A DNA stretch of 43,702 bases, the filler included, from Jimgerdemannia flammicorona (taxonomy: Eukaryota), in NCBI GenBank assembly GCA_003990765.1. It is 2 parts of 2 records of this genome, joined end to end, with 100 filler letters (N's around TTAATTAATTAA, not from the genome) between each part and the next. Parts side by side here need not be neighbours in the genome. Positions count along the whole stretch, not along the records: positions 1 to 21,803 come from RBNJ01001392.1; 1 more part is not named here. The stretch is one strand, 5' to 3'. Positions 1 to 31,473 of this stretch are shown here, one piece after another (position 1 is the stretch's first letter; the number at the start of each line of letters is the position of its first letter). The notes beneath the pieces are model-generated. The model was not told the DNA's origin. It made no database searches and saw only the letters and a list, made by a program, of their open reading frames with translations. Position numbers and translations under genes: made by a program.

Positions 1-134
1 TGGTCGAGCTGCTGGACAATAGCTAGCCTAGGTTAATGGGGGGGCAGTGCTTGGTGGGTGGTGGGGGAGGGTTTTGGCCTATATAGTCTAGGTTCCCTTC
101 CAATAAAAATCCACGGGACATGAGTCCATAAAAC

Positions 135-161
<27 letters not shown>
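1..161 (+). mobile_element. 3' end and poly(A) tail of a SINE-like non-autonomous retroposon (copy A, cut by the window edge)
   Basis: 1-134 matches 1334-1467 base for base by eye, includes AATAAA (~101) and is followed by an A-tract to 161. Confidence 0.85.
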
Positions 162-165
<4 letters not shown>

Positions 166-293
166 GAGTATTTATACTAGTGAGGGGCTATCTGGGCTAT
201 GCTGAATATAGATGTAGCACTTAGTACCTTACTGAGTTGGAATGCAGTCACATAGTACAAGTGTGATCTGATATGTCAAGAGATTGTCTAACT

Positions 294-1480
294 AGCTCCT
301 TTCTCCACTACCTTACCAGTCACAAGGTTTGGTAGGCAACCTTCCAAGTCTCCTTTCCCCTATTATTACCCCCTCTACCTCAGGTTGGTTTGCTGTGCCT
401 GCAGAGGCATGGTGGGAGGAGGGCAATGGTGATGAGTTATCCCTTTATCGGTGTCGGATCGGTGCTTCCTCTACTTTTTCACGGATTCTGGTGCCTTCAG
501 CTGCATCTGAGGTGTACCCGTTTTGGTGTGGTGCCTTCTTCCTTTTGCCATCGCTAACAAGGTATTGTCTTGGTATATCTCAGGCTACATAGGGAGTCAG
601 CTGACCTTGGATATCAAGTGCTCAGTATAGGTTACCTGCAGGTCCTCGGTGCCTGTAGTGGGGCCCTCTGACTTTGGCGAGCTTCCTGGCAAGCATGGTT
701 CTGGTATAGGTGATTGCTTTTTGGGTGTGGTCGGGATGGGAGGAGAGATGGTCATTACAGATAGGTGGAAGGGTGATTATGGTGGACCAGTAGGGTGCCA
801 GGCTGGGGGCAGTCATCAGGGCTAGGGCAGGTGCTGCTTCGGTGGGGCCTTTTGATTGGTGTGGCATGGTTAGGTGGTAGGTGTCACTATTGGCTTCTTT
901 TGGTGGTCAGCGGGGTTGGGCCCCAGTCGTCAGGGGGGGTCAGGAGGCCTGAGGCTACCCATTTCAGGCATCTTGGCTGCACTCAACTGGAACCAAGAGC
1001 TGACATGACAACGTGATCGAGGCCCACAAGCTTGAGTAGTGGGGTATTGGGGGTTTCCTCTCACCTCATATGTAAGTCTTTTACTCATCTCAACTGAGAG
1101 AACCAGGCCCTACCCACCATATTGTGCTTTGATGAGAGTTTTTTATTTGCCTGTCATTCTCTTTGGGGTAGCAGGGGCTATTCTATTCGGCTTAGGCATG
1201 GCCTTGTACATACGTTGGGTTCTCAGGCATGCGCTTTTGGTCATTGGTATATAGTTGGGTTTTTCCTAATGGTAGGGAGAGCATGGTGCATAGAATGAGG
1301 TATGGGCCAACATAGGCCCTGCTGCGCCTGGCATGGTCGAGCTGCTGGACAATAGCTAGCCTAGGTTAATGGGGGGGCAGTGCTTGGTGGGTGGTGGGGG
1401 AGGGTTTTGGCCTATATAGTCTAGGTTCCCTTCCAATAAAAATCCACGGGACATGAGTCCATAAAACAAAAAAAAAAAAA
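294..1480 (+). mobile_element. Full-length ~1.19-kb non-coding poly(A) retroposon (SINE-like), copy B
   Basis: Starts AGCTCCTTTCTCCACTACC, the same 5' end as the copies at ~28519 (+) and 30493 (-). Ends AATAAA...ATAAAAC(A)n. Colinear with 28519-29724 throughout; no conserved long ORF. Confidence 0.85.
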
Positions 1481-2850
1481 GTATATTCAAACTATAGACA
1501 GAACTTTCCTATACCCTGATGATCACATTCTGCAAATACCCCAAGTTGAATATATTATGAAGGACATCTACAATATAATCTAGTTCAATAATGATAAAGC
1601 AGAAGATAATAATCTCTCTGATACTGATATGATCTCCAGCCAAGGATCTCTATTGGTCCTAATCACTCTATCAATATTGCTAATAAACTTATAATAGTTT
1701 ATAACTATCTATAAGACCTATTGGGATATCAACTACTGATATGAGTACTAATATATATTTATGTTCAATTACTTCAACTATAATGAAGAGACTGGAGAAT
1801 ATAATCTATATCTCTAGATAACTCTTAAAATTGAATTAACAACCCACCTTCTGAGTATGAACAAAATGAACAATAGCTACTAGTATACTATAACCCTACA
1901 ACTTATAGTACTGTAATTTATAGAAGATATACAAATAGTGAATCTGATGAAAGCAAAGACAATATACCTCTCCTTTGCTTACTAACTCTATATCTAGTAT
2001 ATGAGACAGATGATACTATTTTATAAGATAATGATATAATTCCAATATATTATTATCTAAGTAAATAGAGAGAAGTAATCCAAGAACTACTCTTTTTAGA
2101 TGACTACTTTATCAGAGATAATGTCATCAATAGTGATATTATTAAAGACTACTCAGATAGTATCTAAATCTATAGATAGCTTAGTAGTCATTAGTATAGT
2201 TATATTAGTCTTATATAATATAACTGTATATTAACTCAGCAGTCAGATAATCTCTTAATATATCAGTTTATACTTATACTATATAACTGTATTCTAACTT
2301 AGCAAAATACTAAGTACTATATTTATATTTAGTATAGTCCAGATAGTCTTCCATTAGTATAAATATCCTCTCTTCCAGACCTCAGAATCTCAGACTTGAA
2401 TAGACTCAAACAGATCTATATAAGAACTTCTAAATACTTTCCCACAATATTCCTTTATACAACTACTTCTAGTATAGCAATATTATAAACAGTGAATAAA
2501 CCTATTTAATAACCCACAAACTACTCTTAAATAAATCTAAACTCCATTAGATTCCACTCTTAATTACATTATAAAATTTCCTAATTAGGTATTGTCTGCA
2601 GTAATATATCAATTCAACTAAGCTGGTCTTAGTTTCTTGAACTTCCTGAAATATAAAAAATCCTAAACATTTAGAATAAGTCTGAAAAAGAACTTTGGTT
2701 GAGATATTAATCCAATCTTGAAATTAATAAGTATAAAGGATATACTCTATATGAAATTAATCTTGACCTTAAGAAAATGGTCTTCTAGAATATCCAGCAC
2801 TTCCAAAAAACTCTTTCAGAACTATATAATAGTACTTTTATAAGTATGTA
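1481..2850 (+). mobile_element. Heavily mutated repeat relic: acidic stop-riddled coding-like segment followed by a possible LTR-like segment; family unresolved
   Basis: CpG-free and TpA-rich. The + frames read as acidic protein-like text with stops (e.g. FLYPDDHILQIPQVEYIMKDIYNII*FNNDKAEDNNLSDTD). No diagnostic motif recognised. Confidence 0.3.
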
Positions 2851-5800
2851 ACTCTCTTATACTTTACTACCAAACTCATTCTCTTTCTATTTTTGAATAT
2901 AAACTATTAGTAGTCAGCTAATCTTATCTATATTATCAATACTCACTCAACTATAAGTTACTTATTATCAATATAACCTACTAACTATTCTCTCAAGTTA
3001 TCTCATCTTTATCTTTATCTACCATCATACTGTCTCACTCTTAGATAATATTTAACTATTACTTAGAAGTTATTAAGAATCTTATACTCTTATAACTAAT
3101 ATTGTTATAGACTCTTTTCTTTTATCTGACATTATAACAATCTTTATACTCCTATTTACTAAGTATTCTGATCTAAAGTTCAATATGATATTCCTTTTTA
3201 AGATCTACTATATCTCAGTACTTTAGGACTAGACTCTAGCCCAGTCTTATATCTTATTAATATCTACTAACTATCAGCTCACTAGTTATAAATTCTGTTC
3301 TATCTCTCATTAATACTCAATATTAGTACTAATATTGAAATCTATCACTAGCAAGCTATCCAATAGGAGCTTGTCTTACCTCTATATTACAGATCTCTAT
3401 TATATTTCTCTCTTATTACTTTATTAATATAAATCAATATAGTAAGTTCTCTCTACTATACTCCATCAGAATCTTCTATACTATAAGTATCTACTACCTC
3501 TTAGTTCAACTATTAATAATAGATCTCTAAAAGATTCTCTAAGAGAGAACCTTATCTTTCAGATCTTTTATATCAAAGACATCTACTCTTCACTCTATAA
3601 CTCAATAGCTCTCTTTATTTACTAAGCTCTAAGATAGTATAATCTTTTCAAGAAATCCACCAGAGCTACCAAGACTTCTCAATATATCTGACTCTATCTC
3701 TCTCTCCAAATTTAGTTCTTAGCTATTTTCAATAACCTCTTTATTACTCAAGCTAAAAAGTCTAAGTAATATATTAAATATTATAACTTCAGCAACTAGT
3801 AGATATTAAGGATTGATACTTATATATCTGATAAGAGAAATATAGTACTCCTCTCAACTCTAAAGAGTCTTCTGTCATTTTACTACCTTTTTTCCTATCA
3901 AACCCTAGATAAGCTGATCTATATATATACTAATAGAAATATATATATCCAGATACTATACTATCTCTCTAGTAGAGATAATAGTATCCACAATATCTCT
4001 ACCCACTAAACTATTTCTCAATACTATTATCTAGTGCTTCTAATAAATTGAATTGAATTGAATTAGACTCAAATTCAATTTAATTTGAAAACTTCAAATT
4101 AAATTAAATTAAGGTCTAATTCAATTTGAATTTTGATTTAAACCTAAATTTTTAAAATTCAATAACTTAACAAGAAAATGTCTAAATTTAATGATCTTTA
4201 TTATACTGGATTCATCTTATCAAGGTGAATTCAATAAGCTAAAATTTATCAAATTTGGATATATTTTTATCAAGTTATTATATTTCAAAGTTTAACTTTT
4301 AATTTTAAATTAAATCAGATCTTAATTCAATTTGAACTCAATTTAATTTAAACTCAATTCAAATTGAAAAATCCCCAATTTGATTCAATTTAAATTACCC
4401 CCAATTTAATTTGATTCAAATTGATTCAATTTATTTAAGAGTACTGCTATTATCTCATATTTATACTAGTTGAGCTTAGCTCTAGAGTACTCTTCATACT
4501 AGTTAATAGTAGTCTACAGCTCACTAATATTCTCAATAGAGCCAAGTCTCACTACTATATTATCTATAAAGGCCCCAATCTTTCAGACTATCTCTAAGAC
4601 TATAAGCTCTAATACTTTATAGTAAATTTAGTCTATTAAAATTCTAATGATAGTATATATAGAATAAGAGACAGCAGGTCTCTCTGAAAGATATCTCTCT
4701 TTAATAGAAATAAGATACCACAATATCTATTATATAAAATTACTGCCTGACTTTTCTCTAAAAGACTATTTATTAATAACTGAAATCAATGAAAGATACT
4801 AATTCTCTCTAATATCTTCTTTAGTCAGACTTACTATATCTGATCATAGGTCTTCTCTTGATTCAGAAAGATCAATCAGTCATTTAGTCTACTAGTTTTC
4901 ATTCTCTCAATTATACTATGAACCCAATCTATCTTATCTCTTATTAGTCTATTATTAATAAAGCTCCTCTACTTAACTCTCAATATCTATTAAGCCACCT
5001 TCTGCAACCTTGTAATAATTATCTTCATAACTAACTTCTTGTCTATATCTAGAAGTATAATTAGCCTCTAGTTCTTCTAATTCTCTCTCCTACTCTTATC
5101 TTTATAAAACAATATTACCAGACTAAGATCCTGACCCTCAACTTACTTCTCAGATAAAAGAACTAAGTTACATAATGCTATTATCTCTCCCAAGACCCTT
5201 GAAACTCTTACTATCTTCTTCTAAAAGTTCTAAGATAAGTTATTCTTACTGAGAGCTATATTTTGTTTTATAGCTAACAAGATATTCAAAATTTTCTTCT
5301 TCTTAACTGGCTGAGCCAAATCTTCAAAACTATCAATCTGTAGAGAGTACCAATCTTCCAGATAGTACTCAATTGTCCTCTTATTAGTATTACTCTCTTT
5401 CTCACTCTATAGATCTCTCTATCTATCTCTCAATAGACTCAGAATTCTCTATATTCTATTTATCAGGGTACTGTTCTTATTGAGCACTCTATTCTACTAC
5501 TACCTCACCCTCTTTATCTAAAGAAGCCTAGATACTTAATTGATCTCTCATCTTTCTCAAGCTTCTGCCATCTTAGCTAAGCAGCCATATTCTATATATA
5601 AGTCTCCTCCTCCTCTCTCAACACTCTCCTCAACTCCTCTATCTCTAGTTGAGCTCACCTCAGCCTCCAATCCTCTATATCCTCCTGTATTAATATCTCA
5701 GCCTATTCCAGCTATAATATCTCTATTCTATAAGAGGCCTACCTTATCTACTATCTCTGCTAAGCCTCTTAGAACTTACTAGTCTTACTCTAATATAATT

Positions 5801-8430
5801 TAGTAGCTTTTTTCAACTTTATCTAATAGATTCTAACTGAAGACCTCTCACTTTTTCAGTAAACAATCTTTCTCCCAATGTCCACCATTTATGTATTTTA
5901 TAATCTCTTCTTCTCTAATAAAGATATCAATATCTAGACCCATCTTTACTCCTCCAAAACTAGTCATACCCCAATAGTCCCCAATGATCAGATTATAGAC
6001 ACTACTCTATTTTCAAGGTCTTTTAGATATCTATCTCTCAGTAATTAGCTATCAGTATCTAATTAATTCTTATTCTAAATTCATTCACTCAATAAGTATA
6101 AACCCTCTAATCACTCTATACTATTCTGCTAGTATCCACTAATAAACTTAGATACTCTACTTTTTCTCAAATATCTATACTACTACTATAGTCTACAGTA
6201 TACCTCCCTTTATCAGTCTTGTTTGCTAACATATTTTACACTATATTGAAGTCTCTATCCAGTATATCTATATTAGCTTTAGTAAATACACTATACTTAT
6301 GAAGTCTATTCAGCTACTCTATATAATCACTTCTAACTACTAGACAATAATAAGAGTCTATCACTACTATGGTATTCCAATCTAGTCTATACTACTCTCT
6401 CTATATTAAGTGGTCTCTCTATCCTCTAACCTCATATAGTTCTCTCTTATCTTTCTGTACTAGAATCTCTACTCTATCTCTCCAAACTACTATACTACCT
6501 TATCTACTTATCTACTCTTATCTATTTAATTCTTTCTCTCAAAATATATTCTATAATAGAAAAATATCTATCTTCAAACTCTTCAGCTAAGCAAAAATAT
6601 TCTGATACTTTACTGAACCTCTCAGACTATTTATATTTAGTGAAAAAATATTAGTTATACTATTTATAAAAAAGTAATATTTTATAGCTATCCTATTTCC
6701 TTTATAGTTTTACACTTATCTTCTCTTCAGCTATGTCTAGATCATATTTTACAATAGCTTCTACCTCTTTAACTTCTTAGCATCCAATCTAGCTAATATC
6801 TCAGCTATCTTCTTGTTATTCTTAATCTCTATCTTCTCTTTATATTTCTTATACACTATCTGCTAGAGCTGCAATCTATACTACTACTTTTACTAAAAAA
6901 TAGTATATTCTCTAGTAATTACTACTAAGTCAGCCTCTCTTTCTACATCTACCTCATAGTCTTCATTCTCTAATAGTATAGCCAAAACTTTAGCTTTTAG
7001 CTTCCTTATTACTCTATCATCTCTCAATATCCTTATCTAGTACTTCTTACTGATAATATATAAGTCTATCTCTCTCAGCTTCTCTACAGCCAACTCATTT
7101 ATCATTACACTCATCCAATACATATCACCTATATATTTTTCATCTGAAGTCATAGACCTCCCCTCCTTTAGTAATATAGAATCAATACTAGTACTAGTAA
7201 ACTTATCCCACTCTTTCTCTGAAATATCATATAGCTTATTTTCCTCTACTCTGACCATCTATCCTCTCTTCACTATATCTGGTATTCTAAACTTAATTCT
7301 ATGTATGCTCCTTATCTTTATATTCTCTACAACTCTTCTTCTTTAAGTATTTGCCTATACTAGATATCTCTCCTTTTTCTTCCAGACTTTGAGCATATCA
7401 TCATTATAGAGCTGCTGACTCTTCACCTCCCTGCTTAATACTATATTCTCCTTTCTCTCTTCTACTCTACTTCTAGCCCAATTACTCACCATTACTTCTT
7501 CTGAGTCCTCCCCCTATCTCATCACTGTTCTCTCCTCCAAACTAGTCAGCAAGTCTCTCTGTCTCTTCCTCCCCTAAGTCTTCTTCTATATCATTTTATT
7601 TATATATATCCTCTTACTATTTATTACTTCCAAATATATTAATACTATATAAGTCTACCATACTATCATTCAATACTCAACTACTCTACTGAGTTTCTTC
7701 AGAGTCTCCAGTAAATCCTTCTCTTCCTTCTTACTCTTCTTAACTCTTATTATCTTACAGATAAATATATATCACATAAATACTACAGATCTGTCTCTAG
7801 TCTTCCTAATATCTTTCTTCTCTATAAGCTGAAGTCTAATATCAATATTATCTATTCTGAATATAGTACTCTTCTATATATTAAATCTTATATCTACTAT
7901 CTTCTTATACTCCTTTATCATCTCTTTAATCCTTCTTCTTATCTCAATAGTTATCATTATAGGTACTCCTTTTACAAAAAGCTATATAATTCTCAGATTT
8001 TATCTCAAATACTGAGCCATCAGCACTACTACTTTACTAATTAATAGCCCAGTCTTTATGGCCTCCATCAATAGCCTCTTCTTCTTAAAATATACCTCAA
8101 CTCCTCTAGTCTATACAGAAACTTCATTGAGGCTGCTCTAGTCAATTGGTTCATAATCAATCTCAAAACTATCTTAGTAGTTACTATAAGTCTCTAGAAA
8201 TATAAAGTAATAGTAATTCTGAGAATGATTTTTTGATTAATAGAGTTACTATTAATTCTATATATATCCTATCTACTCAGCCCTACTATTAGTCATTATA
8301 TCTGGATTTTTTTTCTAGATTTTCTATTATACTACCATCAGTAGTCACCTCTTAGCCCTCAGTAATAGCTTCCCAAGTCTCTATGTCTGCCCTACCAGAT
8401 AGTATCTCTCTAGCTCTTTTAGTACTCAAC
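2850..8430 (-). mobile_element. Decayed L1/Tx1-like LINE, copy 1 (ORF1 remnant plus APE endonuclease-RT ORF2), no 3' tail
   Basis: Mutated minus-strand motifs: SLNINSLRGS (EN start, ~6640), LDRDFN (=GGDFN, ~6250), SDHW (~5985), RDIFQRDLLSL (=RGVxQGDPLS, ~4680), GAFIDNI (=FADD, ~4565). Colinear with 8740-13600. Confidence 0.85.
4032..4446. mobile_element. 415-bp MITE, probably hAT superfamily, inserted in the RT region of LINE copy 1
   Basis: Perfect 8-bp TSD CTATTATC (4024-4031 and 4447-4454). Imperfect TIRs TAGTGCTTCTAATAAATTGAAT / CAGTACTCTTAAATAAATTGAAT. AATTG/CAATT subterminal repeats. The paralogous LINE has the empty site CTATCATC at 9608-9615. Confidence 0.85.
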
Positions 8431-11400
8431 TTTTTTTTTATTTTTTATTTTTATTTTTTCTATAGATATATAATCTCTTTATTAACTAATCTATAATAAA
8501 TATATAGTTCTCATACTATACTAGTAGCTCTAACCCAATCTACTCTACTTTACTCTATCCTAATATATTTTCTCTCCCCCACTCCTATTTTTCAAAACCA
8601 ACTATATTATTAACTATTATAATCTACTTACTACTCTTTTTATAAATTCTTTTCACCAGATACTGATGGTGACTACTCTGAGAGCTCCACTCTCTCTATC
8701 AGCTGAACAGTATATCTACTATTAGCTCCTCCTATCTCACTACCTTTCTCTTAAGACTATCTGCCTTTCATTCTCAAATACATATAACCAATAATCAGCT
8801 AACTCTATCCAAACTACCAATATATACTCAATAGTGAGCCACTTATTATCAATATACTCTATTAACTACTCTCTCAAGTCATCTCATCTACTCTCTTCTC
8901 TATTTACACATATATTAGACAGTTTTCAACCTTCTCTCAGAAGTCACTAAGTACTTTATACTTACTCAGTCAATGTTCAGATATCTGTACAATCTCCCTC
9001 TCTTGCCTTATATTAAGATAATTCTTACACTTAAAATTACTGCTTACTACTAAGTAATCTGACTTAAAGTTCAATATAAAATTTCTTCTCAAGACATATT
9101 ATCACACTATTTAGAACTTTAGAGGAAGCCACCACTATATCTCAGTATTCCAAGACCATACTCCAGCCTAGTCCCAAGTCTCACCAATACCTGCTGTCTA
9201 TCAGTTCAATGATTACAAATTCTGATCCACTCTTTAATAATAGATCCATACCTCTTCTATTTATTAAAGTCATCAGGATCTCTCAACTTATCTAACTTCT
9301 CCTTCTAGTCCAAATCCAGTTCTTAGTCATTCTTAGCAACCTCTTCACTATCTATACTAGAAAGTCTAAGTAGTATACCAGATATTAGAGCTTTAGCAAT
9401 CAGTAGATATTCAGAATTAATATCTACTCTATAAAAGTACTCTCTCTAATTCTGAAGAACATCTCTTCCTTCTACTATCTTTCTCTCACCAAACCCTGAG
9501 TAAGACATATCCATATACTGATAGAAATATATCCAGATATTACACTATCTCTCCCACAGGGACAATAGTTCTAACAATATCTCTATCTACCAAACTATCT
9601 CTCAGCACTATCATCTTATACTTATATCAGTTGAGCTTTACTTCAGAGTACTTCTCATATCATTCTACTGCTCTTCTCAGTATACTAATATCAGCAATCA
9701 AGCTGAGTCTAACTACTATGTCATCTACAAAGACTTCAACCTTCCAGACCACTCCTAGTATTAGAAGCCCTGATATCTTATAGTAAATTCTATTTGTTAA
9801 TAACTTTAATAATAAAGTATATAAGATAGAAATAGTGGGTCTCTCTGTAGAACTCTCCTCTCTAATAAAAATATAGTACTATAATAGTCATTATATAGAA
9901 TCATTGCTCTGCTGCCCTCTAATAGACTAATTATCAATATCTGAAATCAGTAAGAGATATCAATTTTCTTTAATACTATCTTTAGCTAAACTTACCAAAT
10001 TTGATCATATGTAGGTCTTCTTCTAATTCAGGAAGACCAATCTCCTATTCAGTCTATTAACTCTTGTCTCTTCAATCAAACTATATATTTATACTATTCT
10101 ATCTCAAATTAGTCTACTCTCAATAAAGCTCTAATACTTATCTCCTAATATTTATTAAACTACCTTCTATAGTCTTATAATAATCACTTTAGTGACTAAC
10201 TTTCTATCTATATCTAGAAGTATAATTGGTCTCTAATTCTTTCAATTCTCTCTCTTATTTTTGTCCTTATATAGCAGTACTATTAGACCAAGGTTCTGCC
10301 CCCTGACCTATTCTCCAGATATGAGAACAAAGTTACAAAGTACTATTATCTCTCTCAATATCTCTAGAACTCTCACTATCTTCTTCCAAAAGTCCCAGAG
10401 CAGGCCATCCTTATCAAGAGCTATTCTAATTTCATAGCTAATAAAATACTCAAGATTTCATTCTCCTAGACTGGCAGAATCAGATCCTTAAGATCATCAA
10501 TCTGTAGAGGGTACTAATTCTCCAAAGAGTGCCCAATGGTCTTCTCATCTATACTATCTTTCTCCTTACTCTATAGATCTCCTTACTAACTCTTCAAAGA
10601 ATCCAAGATCTACTATATTCTATTTACCAGAATACTCTCTTCATCTAATACTCTATCTCACTACTGTCTTATCTGAAGAAGTCTAGTCAGATACTTAGTG
10701 GGCCTCTTGCCTTTCTTAAGCCTCTATCACTATAGTCAAGCTGCCATACCCTATATCTAAGTCTCCTTCTCCTCCCTCAATATTCTCTTCAACTCCTCTA
10801 CCTCTATCTGAACTTATTTCAGTCTCTAATCCTCTATAGCCTCCTGGCTTAATAAATCAGCCCATTCTAGCTATAACCTTTCCAACTGATAAGAAGCCTA
10901 TCTCACTCTCTGTCTCTGTTGTATTCCTTTAAACTTATCAGTCTTACTCAAATATAACTTAGCAGTCTTCTTCAACTTTATCTAGCAGGCCCCTACAGAG
11001 GACCTCTTATAGTTTCATAGATAATCTTTGACCCAATGTCCTCCAATTAAGCCTCTTATAACCCCATCTCTGCTAGTAAGAAAAAAATTAAAATACTAAT
11101 ATCCAGACTTATCTCCACTTCTCTCAAACTGACTATATCTTAATAGCTCCCAATGATCTGACTATGAGTACCACTTAACCTTTAAATCTATCTAGATATC
11201 TATCTCCTAGCAGTCAGTAGTTAGCATTCAGTCAATTCTCATCTCAAGTTTATTTATCTAATGAGTATAAATCCTCCTATTCTCCTATATTATTCTGTCA
11301 GTATCTATCAAAGAACTTAGATACTCTACTTTCTCTCAGATATCTAAACTATCACTATAGCTCTCAGCACTTCTCTCTCTATCAGTCTTATTCAACAGTA

Positions 11401-13800
11401 TATTCTGTACTATGTTAAAATTTCCAACAAGTATATATGTATATCTATACCAGCCTCAATAAGTGTACCATACTTATGAAGTCTTTTATCTATACCACTC
11501 AGTCATCTCTAACTACTGAGTAATAGTAGAGCCAACTCTCATCCAGGCCTCTATCACTCTCTCTAAATCAAGCAGTCTTTTCAACCCCTGATCTCACAAA
11601 GATCTCCTTTATCTTTCTATATCAGAATTCTCACCTTACTCTTTCAAACTGCTGTACTACTCTATTATTTTACCTATTTTTTTCTATTTAAGTCTCTTTC
11701 ACAGTATATTCTATAACAGAAAAAGATCTGCTTCCAATTCTCTCAACTAAGTAAAAATGTTTTGATACTCTACAGAACTCCTCAGACTATTTATATTTAG
11801 TAAAAAAATATTAGTTATATTGTTTATAATAAAATAATATAATATTGTATTTCTAATTTTCTCACAGTTTCATATTCATCTCCTTCTAAGCCAAGTCTAG
11901 ACCATACTCTACAATAGTTTTCTCCTTCTCAATCTTTCTAGCCTTTAATATAGCTAGTATCTCAGCTATTATTTTATTATTCTTAGTCTCTATCTTCTTT
12001 TTATACTATATATATATATATCTCTTATTAAAGCTACAATCTATACTTCTACTTCTACTAGAAGGCAGTATATTCTCCAGTAGTCACTACTAATTCAGCT
12101 TCTCTTATCTTATCAATCTCATAACATTTCTTCTTTAAATATATAGTCAATATCTCTATAAACTTTTTTACCACTCTATCACTCTACAAAACTCTCACTC
12201 AGTACTCCTTACTGATAATCCTCAAGTCTACTTTTCTCAGCTCTTCTATAGCCAAAATATTCATTATTGTACTTATTCAATATAAGTCACTGATATTCTT
12301 TTCAATAAGAGTCACAGAACTCCTCTCTCTCAATATTGTAACATTAGTACCAGTACTTATAGTCTCATTTTATACCCCTTCTTGAATATCCTGTAGCTTA
12401 TTCTTCTCAACTCTAACTATCTGCCCTCTCTTCACTATATCAGATACTTCAAACTGGACTCTATATATACTTCTCATCTCTATATCCTCTCATCTTTTCT
12501 TTTCGGAGCTTTTGTTCTCACCTTATACTCCTTCTTCTCTCAGACCTCAAGCACTCTATCATTATAGAGCTGCTAACTTCTTGTATTCTCATTCTTCACC
12601 ATACTTATAATCTTCTCCTCTACTCTATCTCTAGTCTAATTACTAGTCTTCACCTCATCTGAACTCCCTCTAGTCCCAGTTACCAGCCTCTCCTTTATGC
12701 TCTCTAATAGGTCCCTCTGCCTCTTTCTTTTCTGAGTCTTCTTCTACATTATTTTGTCTATATAAATTCTCTTTTTATTCACTACTTCTAAGTATATTGA
12801 TATCTCATAAGCTCTCTATACTATCACTTTATATTCTATCACTCCACTGAGCTCTTTCAGAGTCTCTAGCAGATCTTTCTCCTCTTTCTTGCTCTCTTTT
12901 ACTCTTGTCATCTTATAAATAAAAATACTCTACATCAATATTGAAGGCCAGTCCTGAGTCTTCTCAGTAGTCTCTCTCTTAATAAGTCAGAGCCAGATAT
13001 TTATATCTTTAGTCCTAAATGAGATCTCCTCTTAGATCTGAAATTCAATATCTACTATATTACTATATTTTGCTATAACCTCTACTACCCTCTTTCTTAT
13101 TTCAACTACTATCACAATAGGCATCTTTTACTAGAAGCTGAACTATCCTTAAGTTCTATCTCAAGTACTATACTATTAGTACTATTATTTTTCCAATTAC
13201 TAACTCAGTCTTTAAGATCTTCTCTAGTAGCTCTGTCTTCTCAAAACCCATCTCAACTCTCTCCAGCCCCTACAAGAACTTCACCAAAGCTATGTCTACC
13301 ATCTGGTTCACAATTAAGTCCAGACTATCTTGGTCATTACTACTAGCTCTAGAAGTATAAAGTAATAGTAAATTTGGAAATTGACTTCTTAAGTAATGAG
13401 ACTACTACTAGCTCTATTATATCATCTATCAGATCACTCTTCCTAGCTGCTCAACTCTATTATCAGCAGTTATATCTGAATTTTTTTTCAAAGCTCTCAT
13501 CATATTACTATCAGCAGTTATACTCCTGTCTTCAGCAACTGCTTCACCAGCCTCTATGTCCACTCTATTAGGTACTGACCCTCCAGTCCTCTTAGTGTTT
13601 ATCTTTTCTCTTTCTCTAGACTTGCTATTCTGAGTACCTCTAGACTAACTCCCAGCCTTTACTCTGTTAGCAAATTTTATTGATCTCTACTCTTCACTAC
13701 TTATACTTAATAGCTAACTCTCACCAGGTCTGCCTTATCTACTCTCACTACTAAAAAACTCTATCTCTATACTGTAACCCCTTCTGACATATTGCTACCC
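8431..13800 (-). mobile_element. Decayed near-full-length L1/Tx1-like LINE, copy 2, with poly(A) tail
   Basis: T-rich tail at 8431-8459. Motifs: VGNFN (=GDFN, ~11420), RYLDRF (~11195), SDHW (~11155), ALDKDGLLWDFWKK (=APGxDGLPxEF, ~10400), RPIILLDIDRKLVTKVI (~10210), RRVLQRDPL (~9845), VFVDDI (=FADD, ~9725), and a C-terminal CCHC-like remnant (~8970). The 5' boundary is approximate. Confidence 0.9.
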
Positions 13801-13957
13801 AAAGGTCTCAGATCTATCCAACCTAGTATACTTGTCAGAATGCTTAAGTATTATTATATTGCTAGTATCTTTTCTTTAAAAACTATACAAAAAGTATTGA
13901 AAGGTATTTGTATAATGTGAATTGTACTGAAAAAAGGTGTCAACTTCTCCTTCTCCC

Positions 13958-15461
13958 CTAACTGACCACCTTGAGTACCTCCAGACCAACTACCAGCCTT
14001 TGTCTTCTCTGTGAAACTCATCTGACCCAATCTTCTACTGACCAATCTCTACTAATGACTCTCTCCAATTTCTCTCTGACCATCAGTATCTCCAAAGAAT
14101 CCCATCTCCATACCATACCTCCTTCCCACATACTGCCATCTGAATGCCCCAGGTCCACCAGACCTAACATATCTATCAGATCTTCCATTTGCTGATATAT
14201 CAATAGAACTTTTCTTCAAAAACTGCATAAAAGTGAGTTGTGAAGTTTGGTGTAATGTGAATGATAGCAGAGAAAGGTTGGTGTAGAATATATCTTCTTG
14301 ATGTAATTGCTATGTAGTTATGCACTGAAGTCTTTGTATAGAAGTTTTCTCTTTTTAGTAATTTACCTGTCCACTCTGAACCTTTTACTGTTTATGTACC
14401 TCCTACCTATATTAAACTCAACCAGGTCCCGACACCCATTCACGACAACCGCCAAGAACCTCTCGTCCACCTCTGTATCATTACTTATGCTAAGGTTTTC
14501 CAAGGCGACCCACGCCCCCATATCCACGATGCCCGCGCCCGTCACTCGTTTCAGCGGATCTTCCACGACAAGCTTGCGCAGGTTCGGCAACCTTGCTGCA
14601 CAACGAGCAAGCTACCGATTCGACACACCAGTGGGGGCGCCTACATGCAGCTTCTCGAGGCTCAGGTAGGCGTCGACAAGGCGGCAGAGCGACTCCTCGG
14701 TGACGTTTGTGGGGATCTCCTTAAATTCCACAAGGTTAAGCGAGACGAGGTTCGGGCATTGGTCGATAAGGATATAAACGGGGCTGTCCGACACACAATT
14801 GCTGCAGTAGGAGATGTGGAGCCGGCGGAGACGCGAGCCGAGCGCTTGGATGGCCTGCGAGACGGTATCAGCGTCGACGTAGGGAAGGTAACCTAGTTTG
14901 ACTTTGCGGAGGTGGGAGGGGGAGGGGGACGGCGAAGTAAATGCGTTGAGAGGCTTCGGGAGTCACGAGGCCGTGGATTTTGAAGGCATCTAGGCCGGTC
15001 CATATGAGGTTGATTATTTCGAAAAAGGTAATGGTGCACGCAGAGTGCTGGAGCAATGTGGAAATAAAGACGATTAGATCGACGAGCTCCTCGGTGAACA
15101 TTACCGTCGGTTTCTGAGGTAGCAGCTGGATGATCTGTACCATCGCACTGAGGCTGGTTTTCTCGCATAGGTTGTATGTGGCGATGTAGATGGACTTGAC
15201 GAGACGGATGCGTTGGACGGAGACTGGAGGTATATGTCGAGGTTTGGTTCGCTCAGAGCCAAGGTGATGTGTTTATAATTTTCTCGCTTGTCGGTATAAC
15301 ATTTAACAAAAGACCAGATTAACGGCAGGGCGGCATGACGCCATTCGCGAGCAGTTGAACAGGGAGGTGCGGCGAAAATGGTGGTCGAAGACATCATTGT
15401 CATTCACTTGTAGAAAAGAGAGGATATGATTCAGGATCTCTGGGATGGTTGGGAAGGGCAT
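13958..15461 (-). pseudogene. F-box/LRR (RNI-like) protein pseudogene
   Basis: ATG at 15461 gives MPFPTIPEILNHILSFLQ...RTSLFNCS, then frameshifts to REWRHAALPLIW (F-box pattern). LRR-type segments CPNLVSLNL, LPNLRKLVV and LENLSISNDTEVDERFLAVVVNGCRDL follow. There are several frameshifts and stops. A GT-AG intron at 14366-14223 joins the last exon in frame. Confidence 0.75.
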
Positions 15462-17922: not shown

Positions 17923-20900
17923 ATGAGTAGCCCAGACCGCAGAAGCAACCAACGCCGTGACAGCAGGTATTGTTCGGACCCGATGAACCCTTGCTAGCTT
18001 CAGCTGCTAGCTCGCACTCGCAGTAATATCAAACAAACTCTGCTCTCGCACCAGCGGACAATCATGCCCTTCTTATCCCAAGTGTAGGACTTGCGCGGCC
18101 TTTCGGAATATAACCTTGGCCATGCTCTCACCCACCCGTCACCCTTTTACTCCTTCTCAAAGGTCAAGTAGCCAAGCTAACTCCCGCTCCAGCCCGGAAG
18201 AACGTTCCAGCCCCCACACCGACGACCATCCTCGACGTCACCGCCCCTACGACCTCAATAGAAGTTTGTCCAGCGGTAGGACCTACGAGTGGCGCGCCGA
18301 CAACCATGGCCACCAGAGCACGCGCCATCATCGCGAGCATCAAGGCCGGCCACCACTTCGTATGTACGATAGCTACCGCCCCAATTACGAATGTCGAGTG
18401 AGCAGGCAGAGCGAAACAACACGTTCAGGGCTCCCCATCCGGTCCCTACAACAGTCCATTTCTAGCCCTCCTCCTTCCAATCAGTCGCGTCCAAACTCCA
18501 CCCATGCGAATTACTCTCGTCCTATATCGCCATCAAATATCACCGTCGGGCACCGCCGTTCTTCCAGCTATTTCAGCAGCAACTTCTCCCCTCCTCCACG
18601 TACGGCACCCTATCTTGATTTTCAGACATTCCCGTCCCCACCCACTCGCTTCGATTACCAGACTTACCGTCCGACATCATCCTCTTCCGTCCACACACTT
18701 CGCTCCTCTATCCAATCCCCACCACCCTGCCGCGGATCCCCCACCCAAGACACGGTCGAACTCCAACGCCGCATCGAGCGCACTAACCGCGATGGCCGTC
18801 TGGACCGTTATGTCCCGGAATACGCGGTCGTAAAGAGTATCGCCCCGCCCCCGCTAGCATCTCCGCAACCCGTCTACCCCCAATATGTCGTCCCATACGG
18901 CTATCCCGGATGCGGGTGGGTGTATGCGCCTCAAGCTGTACCAATCCAAGATGGGAAGCATGATCCAGATCTACTGATAAATAAACACGGTAGGGTTGTT
19001 ATGGACAGCTACAGACCTGAGTATACTTTGAACAGTTTGAGAGATTCGGAGTCGTGCGGGGAGTCCAGCAGTGCCGGCGGTGGCTCGGGTGGGAGAGACG
19101 CGAACATCGAGACGAAGCGGAGAGAGAATGTTGGTGATAGTCAGGGACGCGCACATCTACAGGCAGGGAATGAGGGTCGAGCCAAGCAGAAGCAGGGGCA
19201 TACTAAGGATGTCGCTGATGATGCCGAGCCCGCTGAATCAAATAACTCGGAGGGGAGGACAAGCCCACGACAATCTCAAGGCCCAACAACTTCTACCATC
19301 GCGAGGACTGGATCGGACCGGGATCTTCCAGAGCAGTCGAGCAACGGCTCAAAGCGTCGCTCCTCGTTGCAATCACAGCCTTCGCCGACTTATGGGCAAG
19401 ACCAACCTCAAACAGTCAGCGAGCAAGCCCAAGCACAACTCCCCAAACTTTGCAACGGCAAGCAGCGTGTGAACGACGCCCAACCGTCTTCGCGCATGCA
19501 GGGACAATCCCCCAGGTCCAACAATAGCAAGGGGTACGCCGACGACAACATCGCCTTCCAGCCATCCTCGCTTCGCATTCATCCACCGTTGCGCAACGTT
19601 GATCCTATGCCGCAGCCCATGATCAATGACATCGCCAACCCATCCACTTCTTTTAGCCTGGGACGCGTACAGAGACCTCATCGTCGCTCGCCACCGTCGG
19701 TCGTTGTAGCCAGCCTGTCGGGAGCCCCAAATATAGACGTTCCGGAAAGACGTGCCATGGAGCCTCCACTTCGCTCGACCACCTCCGACGACGAAGACGA
19801 TCATGTGCCTCTCGCGCGCTGGCGCGACATTGTCGTCAATATTAATGCCGTCATGGAACAAGTCACGACACAGGCGACTGGTCTTGGAGATGAGCATCCG
19901 CGTGGCCGTGACGCTGAAGCTGTGAGCGATGACGATGCGCCATCGTCGTCTGGTGGCGAAAGCACCACAGATACCCTCGTGGAGCCGGTGGGCGCGGTCG
20001 AATTCGGCGGTAAGGTTCGGTATGGGGATGCCAAAGTCGGTAATGCGTGCGGGACGGCGGGTGAAAAATTGGGGGCTTCTGATGTCTTCCCGTGTTTTAA
20101 AGTGGAGAAGCTTGAGATCGATCCCTCCAATGTCGGTAACGTTGTGCTACTTCACGGGGTTGTCGGTGCATCTAATGGCGGTGATATTGTGCTAGAAGAT
20201 GCAAAAAACGGTGAAGACAAACGAAATTCCTCGCTAGATCAAGTTAACGTCGCGCAAGTCGAGACGGTCGGATTGTCTGGTGAGGCATCAAACGAAACTG
20301 ACGCCATGCAGCGGTGCAACCAGAAAAAACCAGTGTCTCTTGGACATTTGTGGTCCACATACATGGACGAATCGTCCGCATCTTCCGATGACACTGACGC
20401 CAGCTCCTCATCTTCGGGATCTCTCACCGTTCAGAGATGCAGCACTCACCACGAGTCCTCTTCATCCTACCATCACCCCGCCGGGTATACGAGTGCCACT
20501 CACCCCACCAAGAGCAACCGCAGGCCTGGAAGAGTCACGCGCAATTTGCTGGAGGACAGTAAGGGCTTTGACACGGACCCGCTCGACCTTCCGCCCGACC
20601 AGCACAAGCAATTTACCGATTACGCACACGTACAGCCGTCGGGGTCTTCTACCGGAGGCGCGAGCGCGACAGATACAGATAACAATCACCCTCCCGCCGG
20701 AAATGACGCCCACAACACCCATCGCCCTATCCCCAACAGCCCCGGGCTATCACGCCCTCATCTTGTCGGCCGGAGAAGCCCGCATTCCCTAACGTGGCAC
20801 CCGTCCGTGCAGGATAATCAACACAGATCGCGCCCACTCCGCCGGTCCCCAAGCTACGTCGTTCAGAGATCGCCGATCAGGTCTCCAAACTACACATCTC

Positions 20901-21692
20901 AAAGTTCTCAGACCAAGTCCCCTGGTCACACTTCCCGACGCCCGTCGACCAGGTTCACAAACCACTCCGACAGAAGCTCCCCTGCCAGGTACGTCGGCGA
21001 AACCACCCAAAACCAACCAGCCAAATCCCCAACTCGCGCCGTCCAAACCACGTCAACCAACCGGTGCATATCCTCTTCCAGCGTTGGCCCCAGGTCCGTC
21101 AATCGCCGCACCAGCTCTAGCGGAAGTCGAGGCTCGAGCAATTCGCGCGGCAGCTCCACATCCAGCCCCACACCCACCGAGGAGCAGGAACAAGATCGTC
21201 CGAACAGGTTCTCATTTTCCCACATCCCACCATTTTTTTCGTGTCGCAGGCGTTCCTCAAACTCACCCGCCGAAATCCAACCGCCCTCGTCGGCGCCGGT
21301 CAACGACGATCAAACTCCAGAGAAGCGTCGTAAGGTTGGGTCGCAGAGTGAGGAGGACAGAGTGGCCGTCGGTGGGAGTCAGCGCGAGGCGGATGATAGG
21401 AGGAGCGGCATGTTTGGAGGGAAGTGGCTTTCGGTAAGTATCTACGCCGGTTGATGAGTGTTTCTTTAATTCTTCATCTGACTTTGTCTGGTGCTTGGCT
21501 GAATGGTTTCATACCTGAAATCCCCAGTATCGTTCCCAGATCAACCACAGTGGTTCACCTACACGCACTTCGATGTCACCCAGGCGGATGACGCCGCGGG
21601 GTACGCGACAGGTGACGGTCGAGAAATTGGAATGGGGGGATCGACATGTGATGACGTTTCGCTACAACTCCGAGGAGGATCAGGAGGAGTAG
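17923..21692 (+). CDS. Hypothetical Ser/Pro/Arg-rich, intrinsically disordered protein, ~1159 aa; predicted exons 17923-17966, 18163-21433, 21528-21692
   Basis: 3.3-kb open frame. ATG in AAAACATG context. Donor AG/GTATTG (17967) and acceptor TTCTCAAAG (18162) join in phase. Donor GTAAGT (21434) and acceptor TCCCCAG (21527) give an in-frame last exon ending ...RYNSEEDQEE*. Confidence 0.75.
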
Positions 21693-27232: not shown

Positions 27233-28060
27233 GGGTAAGTATAAAGAGAGATTGACAAATTGCCGATGACGTTTTCACGTGATAATCCATGCAAAGGGTT
27301 ATATATTTTCTTTCGTTATTTATCATAAAATCGCGTCTCATAGAGTATACTTGGTGTACACATATATATATATATACTTAAATTATGACGCAAGTATTCA
27401 ATGAATGGTACCAGGATTTTGTGATGGCAGGCTGCATGGCTCAGCATGTACAAAAGGCTAACATGTTTGACCCAAGTGACTGTGCGGCATACATTGGACT
27501 TAACACAATGAAGGCAATTCTGCAATCCACCATACCAACCGACACCAACAATCTCAAAACAGATCCATTCAATATAATGTGTTATGACATAACAAGGGTG
27601 GCTACAGATGTAATTAATAATTAATGATTAGCTGAAATAATTATCTGCAGAATGGTCTCTTAAAACTTTATAGTATCTTGAAAAAGATTTTGCAGTATAG
27701 GCTTGTCTGCTGGCTATCCACGGGTGTATGTGGTATGTGAGATGTCTTGTTGGCTTGATCATACCAGATATTATACAACAGAACCTGTAAGTAATCTCTT
27801 TATAGATATATAAATAGTGTTGACATTATAGTAGCTTTTATACTATAAGCACTTCTTCTTATAGATTACTAGTGTCCTTTTATATGATAGCTCTGCCTTG
27901 TCATACTTGATCTAGCTAAAGTAGAGCCCAGTTTGTCTGGCTATTCAGAGTATTGCTATATCTGGGTGCTCTTATCTCAATACCTTCTCATAGATCATCA
28001 GCACCTATTTGTATAGTGACTTAAATCTAATCATAATGTCAGAATAGCAGTTCTGATCTC

Positions 28061-29681
28061 TTTTTTTTTTTTTTTTTTTTTTGTTTTTGTTTTATGGACT
28101 CAGAGTCCTGCAGATTTTTATTGAAAGAGAACCTAGACTATATAGACCAAAACTCTCTCTCACTATCTATCAAGCACTACCCCCTTATTAATCTAGACTA
28201 GCTATTGTCCAGTAGCTCAACCATACTAGGTGCAGCAGGGCCTATATTGACCTATACCTCATTCTGTGCACCATGCTCTTTCTATCACCAGGGAGAATGC
28301 AGCCATATGCCAATGACTGAAAGTGTATGCCAAAGACCTCAATATATATGTATATAAGGCTATGTCCAAACTGAATAGAATAGCCCCTGCTATCTCAAAA
28401 AGAATGATAGATAAATAAAAAACTCTCATCAAAGTACATTATGGTAGATAGGGCCTATTTCTCCCAAATGAGATGAGTAGAGAAATTACATATAAGGTGG
28501 GAGGAGACCCCTATATGGTCTCTTTCTCCACTATCTTACCAGTTATAATGATTTGGTAGGCAACCTTCTGAGTCTACTTTCTATAATTATTATCCCCTCT
28601 ATCTCAGATTGATTTGCTGTATCTGTTGCAGAGTAGTGGAAGAGAGGCAATAGTGATGAGTTGTCCTTTTATTGGTGTCAGATTAGTGTCTTCACTTTTT
28701 TTGCAGTTTCTGATACCTTTGGCTATATCTGGAGTACATTTATTTTAGTGTGTTATCTTCTTCTTTTTGCCATTACCAACAAGGTACTGTCTCAGTATAT
28801 CATGGGTTATATAGAGAGTTGGCTGACCTTGAGTGTCAAGTGCTCAGTATAGGTTACCTACAGGTCCTTGGTATCTGTGGTGGAGCTCTTTAGCTTTGGT
28901 GAGCTTCTCAGTGAGCATGGTTCTGGTATAGGTGACTGCTTTTTGGGTGGTGTCAGGATGGGAGGGGAGATGACCATTACAGATAAAAGAAAGGGTGATA
29001 ATGATGAACCAGTAGAGTACCAGGCTGGGAGCAGTTGTCAGGGCTGGGGTGGGTACTACTTCAGTGGGGCCTTTTGATTGGTACAGAGTGGTTAGGTGGT
29101 AGGTATTACTCTTAGCTACTTTTGACAATTTGACAGATTGGACTCTAGTTATTGGGGGAGATCAGGGGGCCTAAGGCTACCCATTTCAGGCATCTTGACT
29201 ACACTCAACTAGAACTGAGAGCTGATATAGTAATGTGATCGAGACCTGCAGACTTAAGTAGTGGAGTATTGGGGGTCTCCTCCTGTCTTATGTGTAAGTC
29301 CTTTACTCACCTCAACTGGGAGAACCAGACCCTACCCACCATGATGTACTTTGATGAGAGTTTTTCTTTACCTATTATTCTCTTTGAGATGACAGGAGCT
29401 ATTCTATTTAGCTTGAGCATGGCCTTGTATATATATTAGGGTCTTGGGAATGTACTTTCAGTCATGGACATATGGCTGAATTCCCCCTAATAGTAGAGAG
29501 AGTATGGTATACAGATTGAGGTGTGGGCCAATATAGGTCCTACTGCATCTAGCATGGTTGAGCTGCTGGATAATAGCTAGTTTAAGTTAATAAGGAGGCA
29601 GTGCTTGATGGGTGGTGGGGGAGAGTTTTGGCCTATATAGTCTGGGTTCTCTTTCAATAAAAATTCATGAGATATTGAGTC

Positions 29682-29727
<46 letters not shown>

Positions 29728-30496
29728 TGAAGACCCCCAATACTCCACTACTCAAGCCTGCAGACCTCAATTACATTGCTATATCAGCTCCCAGTTCTAG
29801 TTGAGTATAGCTAAGATATCTGAAATGGGTAGCCTTGGGCCCTCTGATCCCTCTCAATAATTGGAACCCAATCCCACGTATTACCAAAAGAAGCTGAGAG
29901 TGATATCTATTATCTAACTGCTCTGTACCAATCAAAAGACCCCACTGAAGCAGTACTTGCCTCAGCCCTGATGACTGCCTCCAGCCTAGCACTCTACTGG
30001 TTTATCATAATCACTCTTCCTCCTATCTATGATGGCCATCTCTCCTCTCATTCTGATAATACCCAAAAAACAGTTACCTATACCAGAACTATGCTTGCCA
30101 GAAAGCTTTCCAAAGTCAGAGGGCCCCACTATAGATACTGAGGATCTACAGGTAATCTATACTGGGTACTTGATGCTCAAGGTTGGCTGATTTCCTATAT
30201 AACCCATAATGTACTAAGACAACATCTTATTGATAATAATAAAAGGAAGAAAGTGCTGCACCAAAATGAGTATACTCCAGATGCAGCTGAAGATATCAGA
30301 ATCTGTAAAAAAGTAGAGAAGACACTGATCAGATACTAATAAAAGAGCAACTCATCACTATTGCCCTCCTCTCACTATACCCCTATAGGCACAGCAAACT
30401 AATCTAAGGTAGAGAGGGTAATAATAGGAGAAAGGAGACTTAGAAGATTGTCTACCAAACCTTGTGACCAGTAAGATAGTAGAGAAAGGAGCTGAT
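28061..30496 (-). mobile_element. SINE-like retroposon copy C (minus strand), split into 28061-28511 and ~29731-30493 by nested copy D
   Basis: Poly(T) at 28061-28082. The two halves are contiguous in the family sequence at AGACCCC. 14-bp TSD GCAGTTCTGATCTC (28047-28060) / GCAGTTCTAATCTC (30497-30510). Confidence 0.88.
28519..29724 (+). mobile_element. SINE-like retroposon copy D, full length, nested antisense in copy C
   Basis: Colinear with 294-1480. A39 tail at 29686-29724. Degenerate ~13-bp TSD GGGAGGAGACCCC / GAGTGAAGACCCC. Confidence 0.88.
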
Positions 30497-31473
30497 GCAG
30501 TTCTAATCTCAGTAAAGATACTTATAGTATATAGAGATTTGATAAAATAGGGAGTTTTTTTTCATCAAAATAAGGTTATTGATAATATCACAGTATCAAA
30601 TAAGCTATAGATGAGATATCAAATCCCTGATAGGAGCAGTAGATAGTATAAATATTTTTATGCAAATTGTAAGTATAGAATATAATAATTAATAATATAA
30701 CATATATATAGGACTTTATATTAATCAGTAGTACTAATGAAACTTTTTCAAAAAGGCTAATCTAATTTATAATAGAATTCTGTATATTATAATTTACTTT
30801 ATATTTTCATTTTCAGTTATATAATATAATATCAAATATGAATTTTTTATATATTTATGCAGATAATAGTAATAGTAACTTATTTGCTAAAATATAACTA
30901 TAATATATACATCAACTATATAGACAATGTGCTATCAAGATTTTCACTATTAACAATATACTTCAACCTTATATATATACTTAAAATACTTAAAATAAAT
31001 CAATCAAAATATCACTGTAGCAATAACCTCAATTTTATTTATAATAACAGATACCTCCAATCAACTATAAAGTTTGCTCTAAAAGGACCACCCAGTTTAT
31101 ACTTAATAAAGTCCATAAAGGGGACCATAATATAATATTAATAGAAGATATATATATAATAGATAACTGATATCAGATAAATAAATAAAGTATAATGAGA
31201 TATTGATATATTATCAAAGAAGTATACTATATATGAATAGAAAAAACAAAACAGAATTCTATAACAGAACTTCTATTATTAATATACAAAATAAGTTTTC
31301 TAATATAATATTATTTACCTATTGATTACTATAAATAATCTAATTTTAGTTATATAATATAAAGTAGTAAAGAAGTTATTAAACTTCTTAATGAAACTAT
31401 TTCTATTGTTAGTCTATAGAATATAGTTAATAGAGTTAATAATCTATAATATAGAGATAATATAAATTAAGAC

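What the first reader, a model, noticed from the sequence alone, without database searches (positions are those of the whole stretch)
294..1480. Unclassified ~1.19-kb non-coding poly(A) retroposon family with a fixed 5' end
Seen: four insertions in the window (1-161, 294-1480, 28061-30496, 28519-29724). The three whose 5' end is visible start at the same point (CTTTCTCCACTA). All carry AATAAA plus poly(A), and copy C has a 14-bp TSD. Established: an A-tail plus a ~10-20-bp TSD indicates target-primed reverse transcription, and L1-clade LINEs (present here) can mobilise poly(A) RNAs in trans. Inference: this is a long SINE-like element or retrotransposing lncRNA, with no Pol III A/B box I could see and no LINE-derived tail. 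The AATAAA suggests Pol II transcription from an internal promoter. SINEs are poorly documented in fungi.
Basis: partly seen in the sequence, partly recalled or inferred. Interest (0 to 1): 0.72.

Follow-up and report, generated by a model that had tools for sequence, protein, structure and literature searches.

The report
LINE-headed non-coding fungal retroposon family
A 1.2-kb gene-less jumping element with thousands of copies in a fungal genome starts with the same short signal as the genome's own LINE retrotransposons, which suggests it borrowed both their promoter and their copying enzymes; parasites of this kind are known, but apparently not from this LINE group.

Summary
The family is real: 2,480 exact matches to a 5' motif, an estimated 5,000-7,000 copies. 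Target-site duplications (mode 15 bp) flank 41 of 56 copies tested, and 23 of 27 informative copies picked by their 3' end are full length. No ORF, Rfam hit, tRNA or A/B box was found. The first ~50 nt match the 5' terminus of this genome's L1/Tx1-type LINEs (35 identities in 48 columns with the nearest family). A matrix built from seven LINE heads alone scores the element's head at 22.6 bits against 2.5 for its next-best window. The 1.1-kb body matches none of the LINEs tested. Best reading: a non-autonomous retroposon transcribed by Pol II from a LINE-derived head and copied in trans by these LINEs, like NARTc/RIME and like Eg-R1 and Sadhu. Promoter activity and transcription are inferred, not shown. 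The scan met this family before on other DNA (e1-7552570, e1-7416174); the notes as shown to me do not mention the head link.

The parts
294..1480 (+). Copy B, full-length element of the main subfamily; no TSD found
   Evidence: 9% diverged from the family consensus, mostly CpG transitions
299..344 (+). Head shared with the 5' terminus of the genome's L1/Tx1-type LINEs; presumed Pol II internal promoter/initiator (function inferred)
345..1434 (+). Non-coding, A-poor body of unknown origin with eight runs of 4 or more T in the consensus; a G-rich tract near its end
1435..1440 (+). AATAAA polyadenylation signal
   Evidence: present in nearly all copies listed
1449..1460 (+). 4-bp stem with 4-5 nt loop just before the A-tail, same place and size as in the LINE tails (weak evidence)
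   Evidence: shuffle p 0.07; 0.006 in the LINE register, post hoc
1468..1480 (+). Poly(A) tail of copy B
1..161 (+). Copy A, 3' end at the contig start; identical to B over 147 nt (duplication or assembly join possible)
28061..30494 (-). Copy C, older, split by copy D
28047..28060 (-). 3' copy of C's 14-bp target-site duplication
30497..30510 (-). 5' copy of C's 14-bp target-site duplication (1 mismatch)
28519..29724 (+). Copy D, second subfamily, inserted inside C in the opposite orientation; degenerate ~16-17 bp TSD (28499-28514 / 29725-29741) below my detection threshold
13911..13937 (-). LINE 5' head carrying the shared motif (start of the decayed L1/Tx1-type LINE that ends at ~8431)
14251..14277 (-). 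Second LINE 5' head with the shared motif

Best explanation
A non-autonomous non-LTR retroposon built on a LINE head. Its first ~30-50 nt descend from the 5' terminus of the genome's B/C/D clade of L1/Tx1-type LINEs and serve as an internal Pol II promoter, which fixes the 5' end (homology shown; promoter function inferred). Pol II reads through a 1.1-kb non-coding body, and the RNA is cut and polyadenylated after AATAAA (inferred). LINE ORF1p/ORF2p bind it in trans through the poly(A), perhaps helped by a small 3' hairpin, and insert it by target-primed reverse transcription (TSDs, A-tails and occasional 5' truncation shown; the donor LINE is inferred, most likely the young LINE-B/D group). 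New copies decay by cytosine deamination, mainly at CpG (shown).
For: TSDs of 12-23 bp, mode 15, in 41 of 56 copies with both flanks, against 13 of 500 mismatched flank pairs. Three LINE copies inspected have TSDs of similar size (L195; L244 and L245); two others (L208, L228) showed none. Head: best of ~2,300 windows of LINE-B, C and D is their own 5' terminus; 35 identities, 10 mismatches, 3 gaps with LINE-D. Matrix from seven LINE heads only: 22.6 bits, next window 2.5, best of 100,000 shuffles 12.1; all 44 hits at that score in 1.8 million windows with the element masked are LINE heads by inspection. A degenerate head pattern has 7,198 matches (control 0); of the 100 listed, about 44 are this family and 56 LINE-type heads, counted by eye. 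LINEs are intact-looking two-ORF APE-RT elements nearest human L1 ORF2p. Ages overlap: non-CpG divergence of the element from 1.3% (median 3.2%, n=62, sample biased young), LINE-B 1.3-2.6%. Eight T4+ runs and no A/B box argue against Pol III.
Against: No transcript, cap or start site was seen: the runs laid are contigs and the one true RNA run gave two contigs. Similarity beyond the 27-nt core is only modest (downstream-only p 0.01 for one of seven families tested, not significant for the other six), so a shared short motif could be convergent. LINE-A, equally young, has a different head (1,231 of 2,300 windows score as well) and could also be the donor. No primary-sequence homology at the 3' tail (20 of 2,330 LINE-B windows score as well); the hairpin is weak (p 0.07). 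Only four LINE families were compared at full length, within ~0.9 of 231 Mb fetched. LINE clade rests on domain layout and nearest hits, not on a tree.
Confidence: 0.7

Rival explanations
1. A host lncRNA or gene fragment whose own start carries the same transcription-factor site as the LINEs (convergence, not descent) and which became a poly(A) parasite, as Sadhu and Eg-R1 are described.
For: The body is not LINE-derived. Weak three-base periodicity in consensus positions 30-560 (p 0.002, window chosen after looking) hints at captured antisense coding DNA. The shared core is short.
Against: The match sits at the exact 5' terminus of both element types, is ungapped over 27 nt and extends to ~46 nt with LINE-D. 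The motif was found only at element heads among the hits inspected. No parent gene or protein was found.
Confidence: 0.15
2. An ordinary internal-deletion derivative of an unsampled or extinct LINE, the body being its long UTR or decayed ORF.
For: LINE-like head, AATAAA-hairpin-poly(A) tail layout, G-rich sense strand like the LINEs. Many LINE families exist and only part of the genome was fetched.
Against: No blastn, tblastn or nhmmer match of the body to LINE-A/B/C/D or other fetched DNA. These LINEs have 5' UTRs of only ~80 nt and very short 3' UTRs. Body A content 13% against ~20% in their ORFs. All 28 non-window copies picked by the last 88 nt led upstream into the element, a contig edge or another insertion, never into a LINE ORF2 with this tail.
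Confidence: 0.1
3. The 5' end is set by a self-cleaving ribozyme on read-through transcripts, as in R2 or L1Tc.
For: Precise 5' end; precedent in L1Tc/NARTc (PMC3383444, abstract).
Against: No Rfam match. My HDV-like descriptor found 0 hits in the first 330 nt (a crude descriptor, with no positive control). The 5' 104 nt fold no better than shuffles (z -0.24 and -0.45).
Confidence: 0.03
4. A classical Pol III SINE with an unrecognised RNA-derived head.
For: Non-coding, non-autonomous, high copy, A-tail.
Against: No tRNA in 7 of 7 loci, no Rfam hit, no A/B box, eight T4+ runs starting at position 183, AATAAA at mRNA-like spacing.
Confidence: 0.02

Closest known systems
NARTc/L1Tc and RIME/ingi of trypanosomes (Pr77 hallmark); bipartite ORF-less non-autonomous LINEs
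   Same: Short non-coding element that shares its 5' terminus with autonomous LINEs of the same genome; in L1Tc the shared head is an internal promoter (PMC3383444, abstract and opening read).
   Different: Partner LINEs here are L1/Tx1-like. Kojima 2018 (PMC5786205, section 23 read) reports ORF-less bipartite elements only from RTE, Ingi, Vingi and R2. Here the head is ~46 nt and about 73% identical, the tail shares only layout, there is a 1.1-kb foreign body, and no ribozyme was found.
Eg-R1, Egh24 and BG_Non-LTR elements of Blumeria (powdery mildew)
   Same: Fungal, high copy (Eg-R1 657 bp, Egh24 884 bp; PMC10648671 passages), no A/B boxes, internal poly(T), AAUAAA, taken as Pol II transcripts, conserved 5' region across families (PMC6022598 passages).
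   Different: That paper says genomic Eg-R1 copies lack poly(A); here A-tails are the rule. Blumeria LINEs are Tad1. The passages read report no link of the head to a LINE. Sequences were not compared.
Sadhu of Arabidopsis
   Same: ~900-bp non-coding, poly(A), 7-16 bp TSD, 5' motif plus polypyrimidine tract, no Pol III boxes, assumed LINE-mobilised (PMC2848041, part 1 and passages).
   Different: 39 copies against thousands; origin and partner of Sadhu left open in that paper, whereas here the head maps to identifiable LINEs.
HAL1 and Dictyostelium TRE5-A.2
   Same: Non-autonomous derivatives keeping the ends of a LINE and mobilised in trans (PMC5786205; PMC3159450 passages).
   Different: Both keep ORF1; this element has no ORF and no LINE-derived interior.

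Membership tests
Non-autonomous non-LTR retroposon (TPRT in trans) | Variable-length TSD, A-tail, no LTR/TIR, dispersed copies | tested here: met
   41 of 56 TSDs, 12-23 bp; A-tails
Non-autonomous non-LTR retroposon (TPRT in trans) | No coding capacity | tested here: met
   Longest stop-free stretch 125-138 codons against a shuffle median of 139; protein searches return only translations of element copies
Non-autonomous non-LTR retroposon (TPRT in trans) | Co-existing autonomous LINE of matching age | tested here: met
Classical Pol III SINE | tRNA/7SL/5S-derived head with A/B boxes | tested here: not met
Classical Pol III SINE | No internal Pol III terminators | tested here: not met
   eight T4+ runs
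Bipartite non-autonomous LINE (NARTc/RIME type) | 5' terminus shared with an autonomous LINE | tested here: met
Bipartite non-autonomous LINE (NARTc/RIME type) | 3' tail derived from the same LINE | tested here: inconclusive
   same layout (AATAAA, 4-bp stem, A-tail), no significant sequence match
Bipartite non-autonomous LINE (NARTc/RIME type) | Element is a simple internal deletion of the LINE | tested here: not met
   1.1-kb body matches none of four LINE families
Bipartite non-autonomous LINE (NARTc/RIME type) | Head acts as internal Pol II promoter | not testable with these tools
   only contig runs available
Bipartite non-autonomous LINE (NARTc/RIME type) | HDV-like ribozyme in the head | tested here: inconclusive
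   none found, but the descriptor had no positive control
Eg-R1 / Sadhu type Pol II SINE-like retroposon | 0.6-1.2 kb, non-coding, no Pol III boxes, poly(A) signal, conserved pyrimidine-rich 5' end | tested here: met
Eg-R1 / Sadhu type Pol II SINE-like retroposon | Sequence homology to Eg-R1, Egh24 or Sadhu | not testable with these tools
   no Repbase, Dfam or GenBank fungal/plant DNA on hand
Processed pseudogene | A parent gene and a restorable ORF | tested here: not met
   no ORF or protein relative; three subfamilies with thousands of copies indicate self-propagation; a non-coding parent is not excluded

The most novel reading that the evidence does not exclude
An ORF-less parasite of L1/Tx1-group LINEs that kept only a ~30-50 nt promoter hallmark common to a whole LINE clade (and a terminal hairpin mimicking their tail), filled its middle with foreign DNA and came to rival its hosts in copy number. 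This would extend the Pr77/NARTc strategy to the L1 group and to fungi, define a minimal LINE promoter by natural deletion, and offer a testable origin for orphan Pol II 'SINEs' such as Sadhu and Eg-R1.
Probability: 0.45. Interest if true: 0.7.

Novelty: new variant of a known kind. Interest (0 to 1): 0.5.

Why it matters
Pol II-type 'SINE-like' elements (Eg-R1, Sadhu) have been described without a known origin for their fixed 5' end. Here the end maps to the conserved first ~30-50 nt of the genome's L1/Tx1-type LINEs. That gives a concrete mechanism, points to a very compact candidate LINE promoter, and suggests a simple check in Blumeria and Arabidopsis (compare element heads with LINE 5' termini). 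It also accounts for roughly 3% of this genome. It remains a transposon family: no host function is implied.

Tried and rejected
Hidden ORF: none beyond shuffles in three subfamily consensuses; differences between subfamilies show no clear third-position excess; indels in the main subfamily are mostly 1-2 nt (51 of 56). Antisense frame at 622-906: its two stops recur in nearly all of the 150 best copies; database hits were two singleton translations that look like copies of the element and none among longer proteins. RNA families and tRNA: nothing. Global RNA structure: folds worse than shuffles (z +2.4). HDV-like ribozyme: no hit. LTR origin: no match to the gypsy-type RT loci (30 loci) or other fetched DNA. 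Expression: runs X8 (RNA only by guess) and X20 (RNA, 2 contigs) cannot show strand, start or level; not used as support. The endonuclease family search in the genome found nothing and one head pattern was mis-spaced and found nothing. No RT tree was built, for lack of named reference sequences. Literature searches listed no paper describing this family or an ORF-less L1-clade element with a shared head; they cover open-access text only, and Repbase/Dfam could not be searched.

Full report
Observation. The four pieces are in the window as described. The window is two contigs joined by an N-linker; places 1-21803 are G000:C1392, in a genome of 231 Mb in 35,354 contigs. The only named relative among four hits to a neighbouring BTB gene is from Endogone, so the host is probably an Endogonales-like fungus. 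Copy C has a 14-bp TSD with one mismatch and D sits inside it in the opposite orientation. Copy B has no TSD, and A equals B's last 147 nt exactly, so that pair may be a duplication or an assembly join.

Family size and shape. The full copy drew 5,931 first-look candidates. Exact patterns gave 2,480 5' ends and 1,546 3' ends, with reversed controls at 0. Of 30 loci picked by the 5' pattern 9 also carried the 3' pattern, and of 30 picked by the 3' pattern 11 carried the 5' one. That implies about 5,000-7,000 copies, near 3% of the genome (my estimate). Among the 30 loci picked by the 3' pattern in contig order, 23 are full length, 4 are 5'-truncated (at 78, 388, 774 and 788; three with clear TSDs, one weak), 2 run off the contig and 1 is interrupted. 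Of 28 non-window loci picked by best match to the last 88 nt, 18 are full length, 7 hit contig edges and 3 are interrupted by other insertions. TSDs were found in 41 of 56 full-length copies with both flanks (12-23 bp, mode 15) against 13 of 500 shuffled pairs; they start A/G-rich, usually after T, and 0-7 variable bases, mostly beginning with C, precede the conserved head. One contig of an independent run joins the two flanks of locus L026 with 17 bases fitting either side, the pre-insertion state, though that flank is itself a repeat. Of 74 full-length copies, 62 form the main subfamily, 5 a second (including D), 4 a third that shares positions 1-567 and the last ~130 nt but has a different middle with a duplicated module, and 3 were left unassigned. 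Decay is by transitions: 33% of C in CpG, 8% in CpA, 4% in CpC, 1% in CpT.

Non-coding. Longest stop-free stretches (125-138 codons) do not exceed shuffles (median 139), and most indels break frame. The antisense frame that looks protein-like keeps its stops in nearly all 150 best copies and has no relatives except two singleton translations that look like element copies. Rfam and ARAGORN found nothing. There is no A or B box, and eight T4+ runs would stop Pol III. A weak three-base periodicity in the 5' half (p 0.002, post hoc) is left as a hint that the body was once antisense coding DNA.

The LINEs. I fetched young full-length copies of four families, A to D, 5.8-5.9 kb long. They have two ORFs, APE endonuclease and RT, are nearest to human L1 ORF2p among solved structures (E 2e-26 against 6e-9 for R2), and their best database relatives carry the endonuclease, RT and zf-RVT domains (3 of 6 hits). 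They end in AATAAA, a 4-bp stem with a 5-nt loop, and poly(A). I call them L1/Tx1-type on this basis; no tree was built.

The key result. The element's first ~50 nt align with the 5' terminus of LINE-B, C and D but not A. For each of B, C and D the best of ~2,300 windows on both strands is the LINE's own start; with LINE-D there are 35 identities, 10 mismatches and 3 gaps. Forty-two LINE heads fall into seven families sharing a 27-nt motif. A matrix made from those seven alone gives the element's head 22.6 bits (LINE families left out in turn: 15.7-39.2), its next-best window 2.5 and the best of 100,000 shuffles 12.1. In 1.8 million windows of fetched DNA with the element masked, all 44 hits at that level are LINE heads by inspection, two of them in this window. 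A degenerate pattern covering both element types has 7,198 matches; of the 100 listed, about 44 are this family and 56 LINE-type heads, counted by eye, and three older-looking element heads carry the LINE base at one diagnostic position. LINE-B, C and D heads alone number at least 995, 754 and 166. Against this: similarity past the core is significant for only one of seven families (p 0.01), and the fetched DNA holds few host promoters, so convergence on a common promoter motif is not excluded. The body has no match to any LINE or other fetched DNA by blastn, tblastn or nhmmer. The tail shares layout only: its 4-bp stem keeps two pairs of the LINE stem and swaps two, and its loop varies between subfamilies while the stem does not, but chance gives such a stem 7% of the time (0.6% in the LINE register, post hoc).

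Mechanism. Shown: TPRT marks, non-coding state, a LINE-like head, and co-existing LINEs of overlapping age (element from 1.3% non-CpG divergence, LINE-B 1.3-2.6%, LINE-A 1.8-2.7%, LINE-C 4.5% and more; samples biased to young copies). Inferred: the head is an internal Pol II promoter, the RNA is polyadenylated at AATAAA, and LINE proteins copy it in trans. That LINE 5' extremities drive transcription and that bipartite elements are probably Pol II transcripts is stated in PMC5786205 (section 23). No transcript evidence was obtained.

Comparison. It works like NARTc/RIME (shared head; PMC3383444, abstract and opening) but is not a plain internal deletion. [quoted passage not shown] It looks like Eg-R1/Egh24 (PMC6022598 and PMC10648671, passages; Wei 1996 seen only as cited there) and Sadhu (PMC2848041, first fifth and passages), for which the text read gives no LINE origin of the head. 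Supplement Fig. S4 of PMC6022598, on the conserved 5' region of the Blumeria elements, was not seen and may bear on this. TRE5-A.2 (PMC3159450, passages) and HAL1 keep ORF1. A Candida review (PMC3956500, passages) added nothing specific. My nine literature searches listed no description of this family; Repbase and Dfam, where it or similar L1-derived elements could be filed, were not searchable.

Earlier scan notes. The same family seems to have been followed up twice and filed near Eg-R1 (e1-7552570, e1-7416174), and a VNTR element of this genome was said to keep a LINE start and tail (e1-7551782). That note prompted the head comparison, which I tested for this family only.

Verdict. A real, abundant, non-autonomous retroposon; a new variant of a known kind. 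Interest 0.5; 0.7 if the promoter role of the LINE-derived head and the L1/Tx1 placement are confirmed.

Noticed in passing
window 21804-21903: N-run with an artificial linker: the window joins two contigs, so its two halves are not neighbours.
   Followed up: yes
window 22576-24111 and 25742-27274 (minus): Two tandem, ~79% identical intronless BTB/POZ genes (510 aa) with SPRY-like relatives; nearest named hit from Endogone.
   Followed up: partly
window 18011-21454 (+): 1,147-codon low-complexity open frame with no Pfam match.
   Followed up: no
window 1-13900 and 28000-39000: Repeat blocks with essentially zero CpG beside gene blocks with normal CpG; C-to-T decay at CpG far above CpA, CpC and CpT, pointing to methylation-driven or RIP-like mutation.
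   Followed up: partly
L095, L102, L159; window ~25050-25070: Insertions into the element end in a similar hairpin-like stretch followed by CTAG-type ends, as Helitrons do (label recalled); a related stretch lies in the window.
   Followed up: no
L104, L109, L116, L121, L123, L157: Third subfamily with a swapped middle and an ~80-bp duplicated module: modular exchange between conserved head and tail.
   Followed up: partly
G000: Unusually many 5'-complete L1-type LINE copies (at least 995, 754 and 166 heads), with very short 5' UTRs (~80 nt) and Gly-rich ~700-aa ORF1 without a Pfam match above cut-off.
   Followed up: partly
window 39150-43702 (minus): Gypsy-like LTR retrotransposon pieces (RNase H and integrase-like frames) next to a 32-nt T-run.
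   Followed up: no
window 16998, 21768, 21993, 24443, 25320, 39114: Long A or T homopolymers without AATAAA or element homology, several in gene-rich DNA.
   Followed up: no
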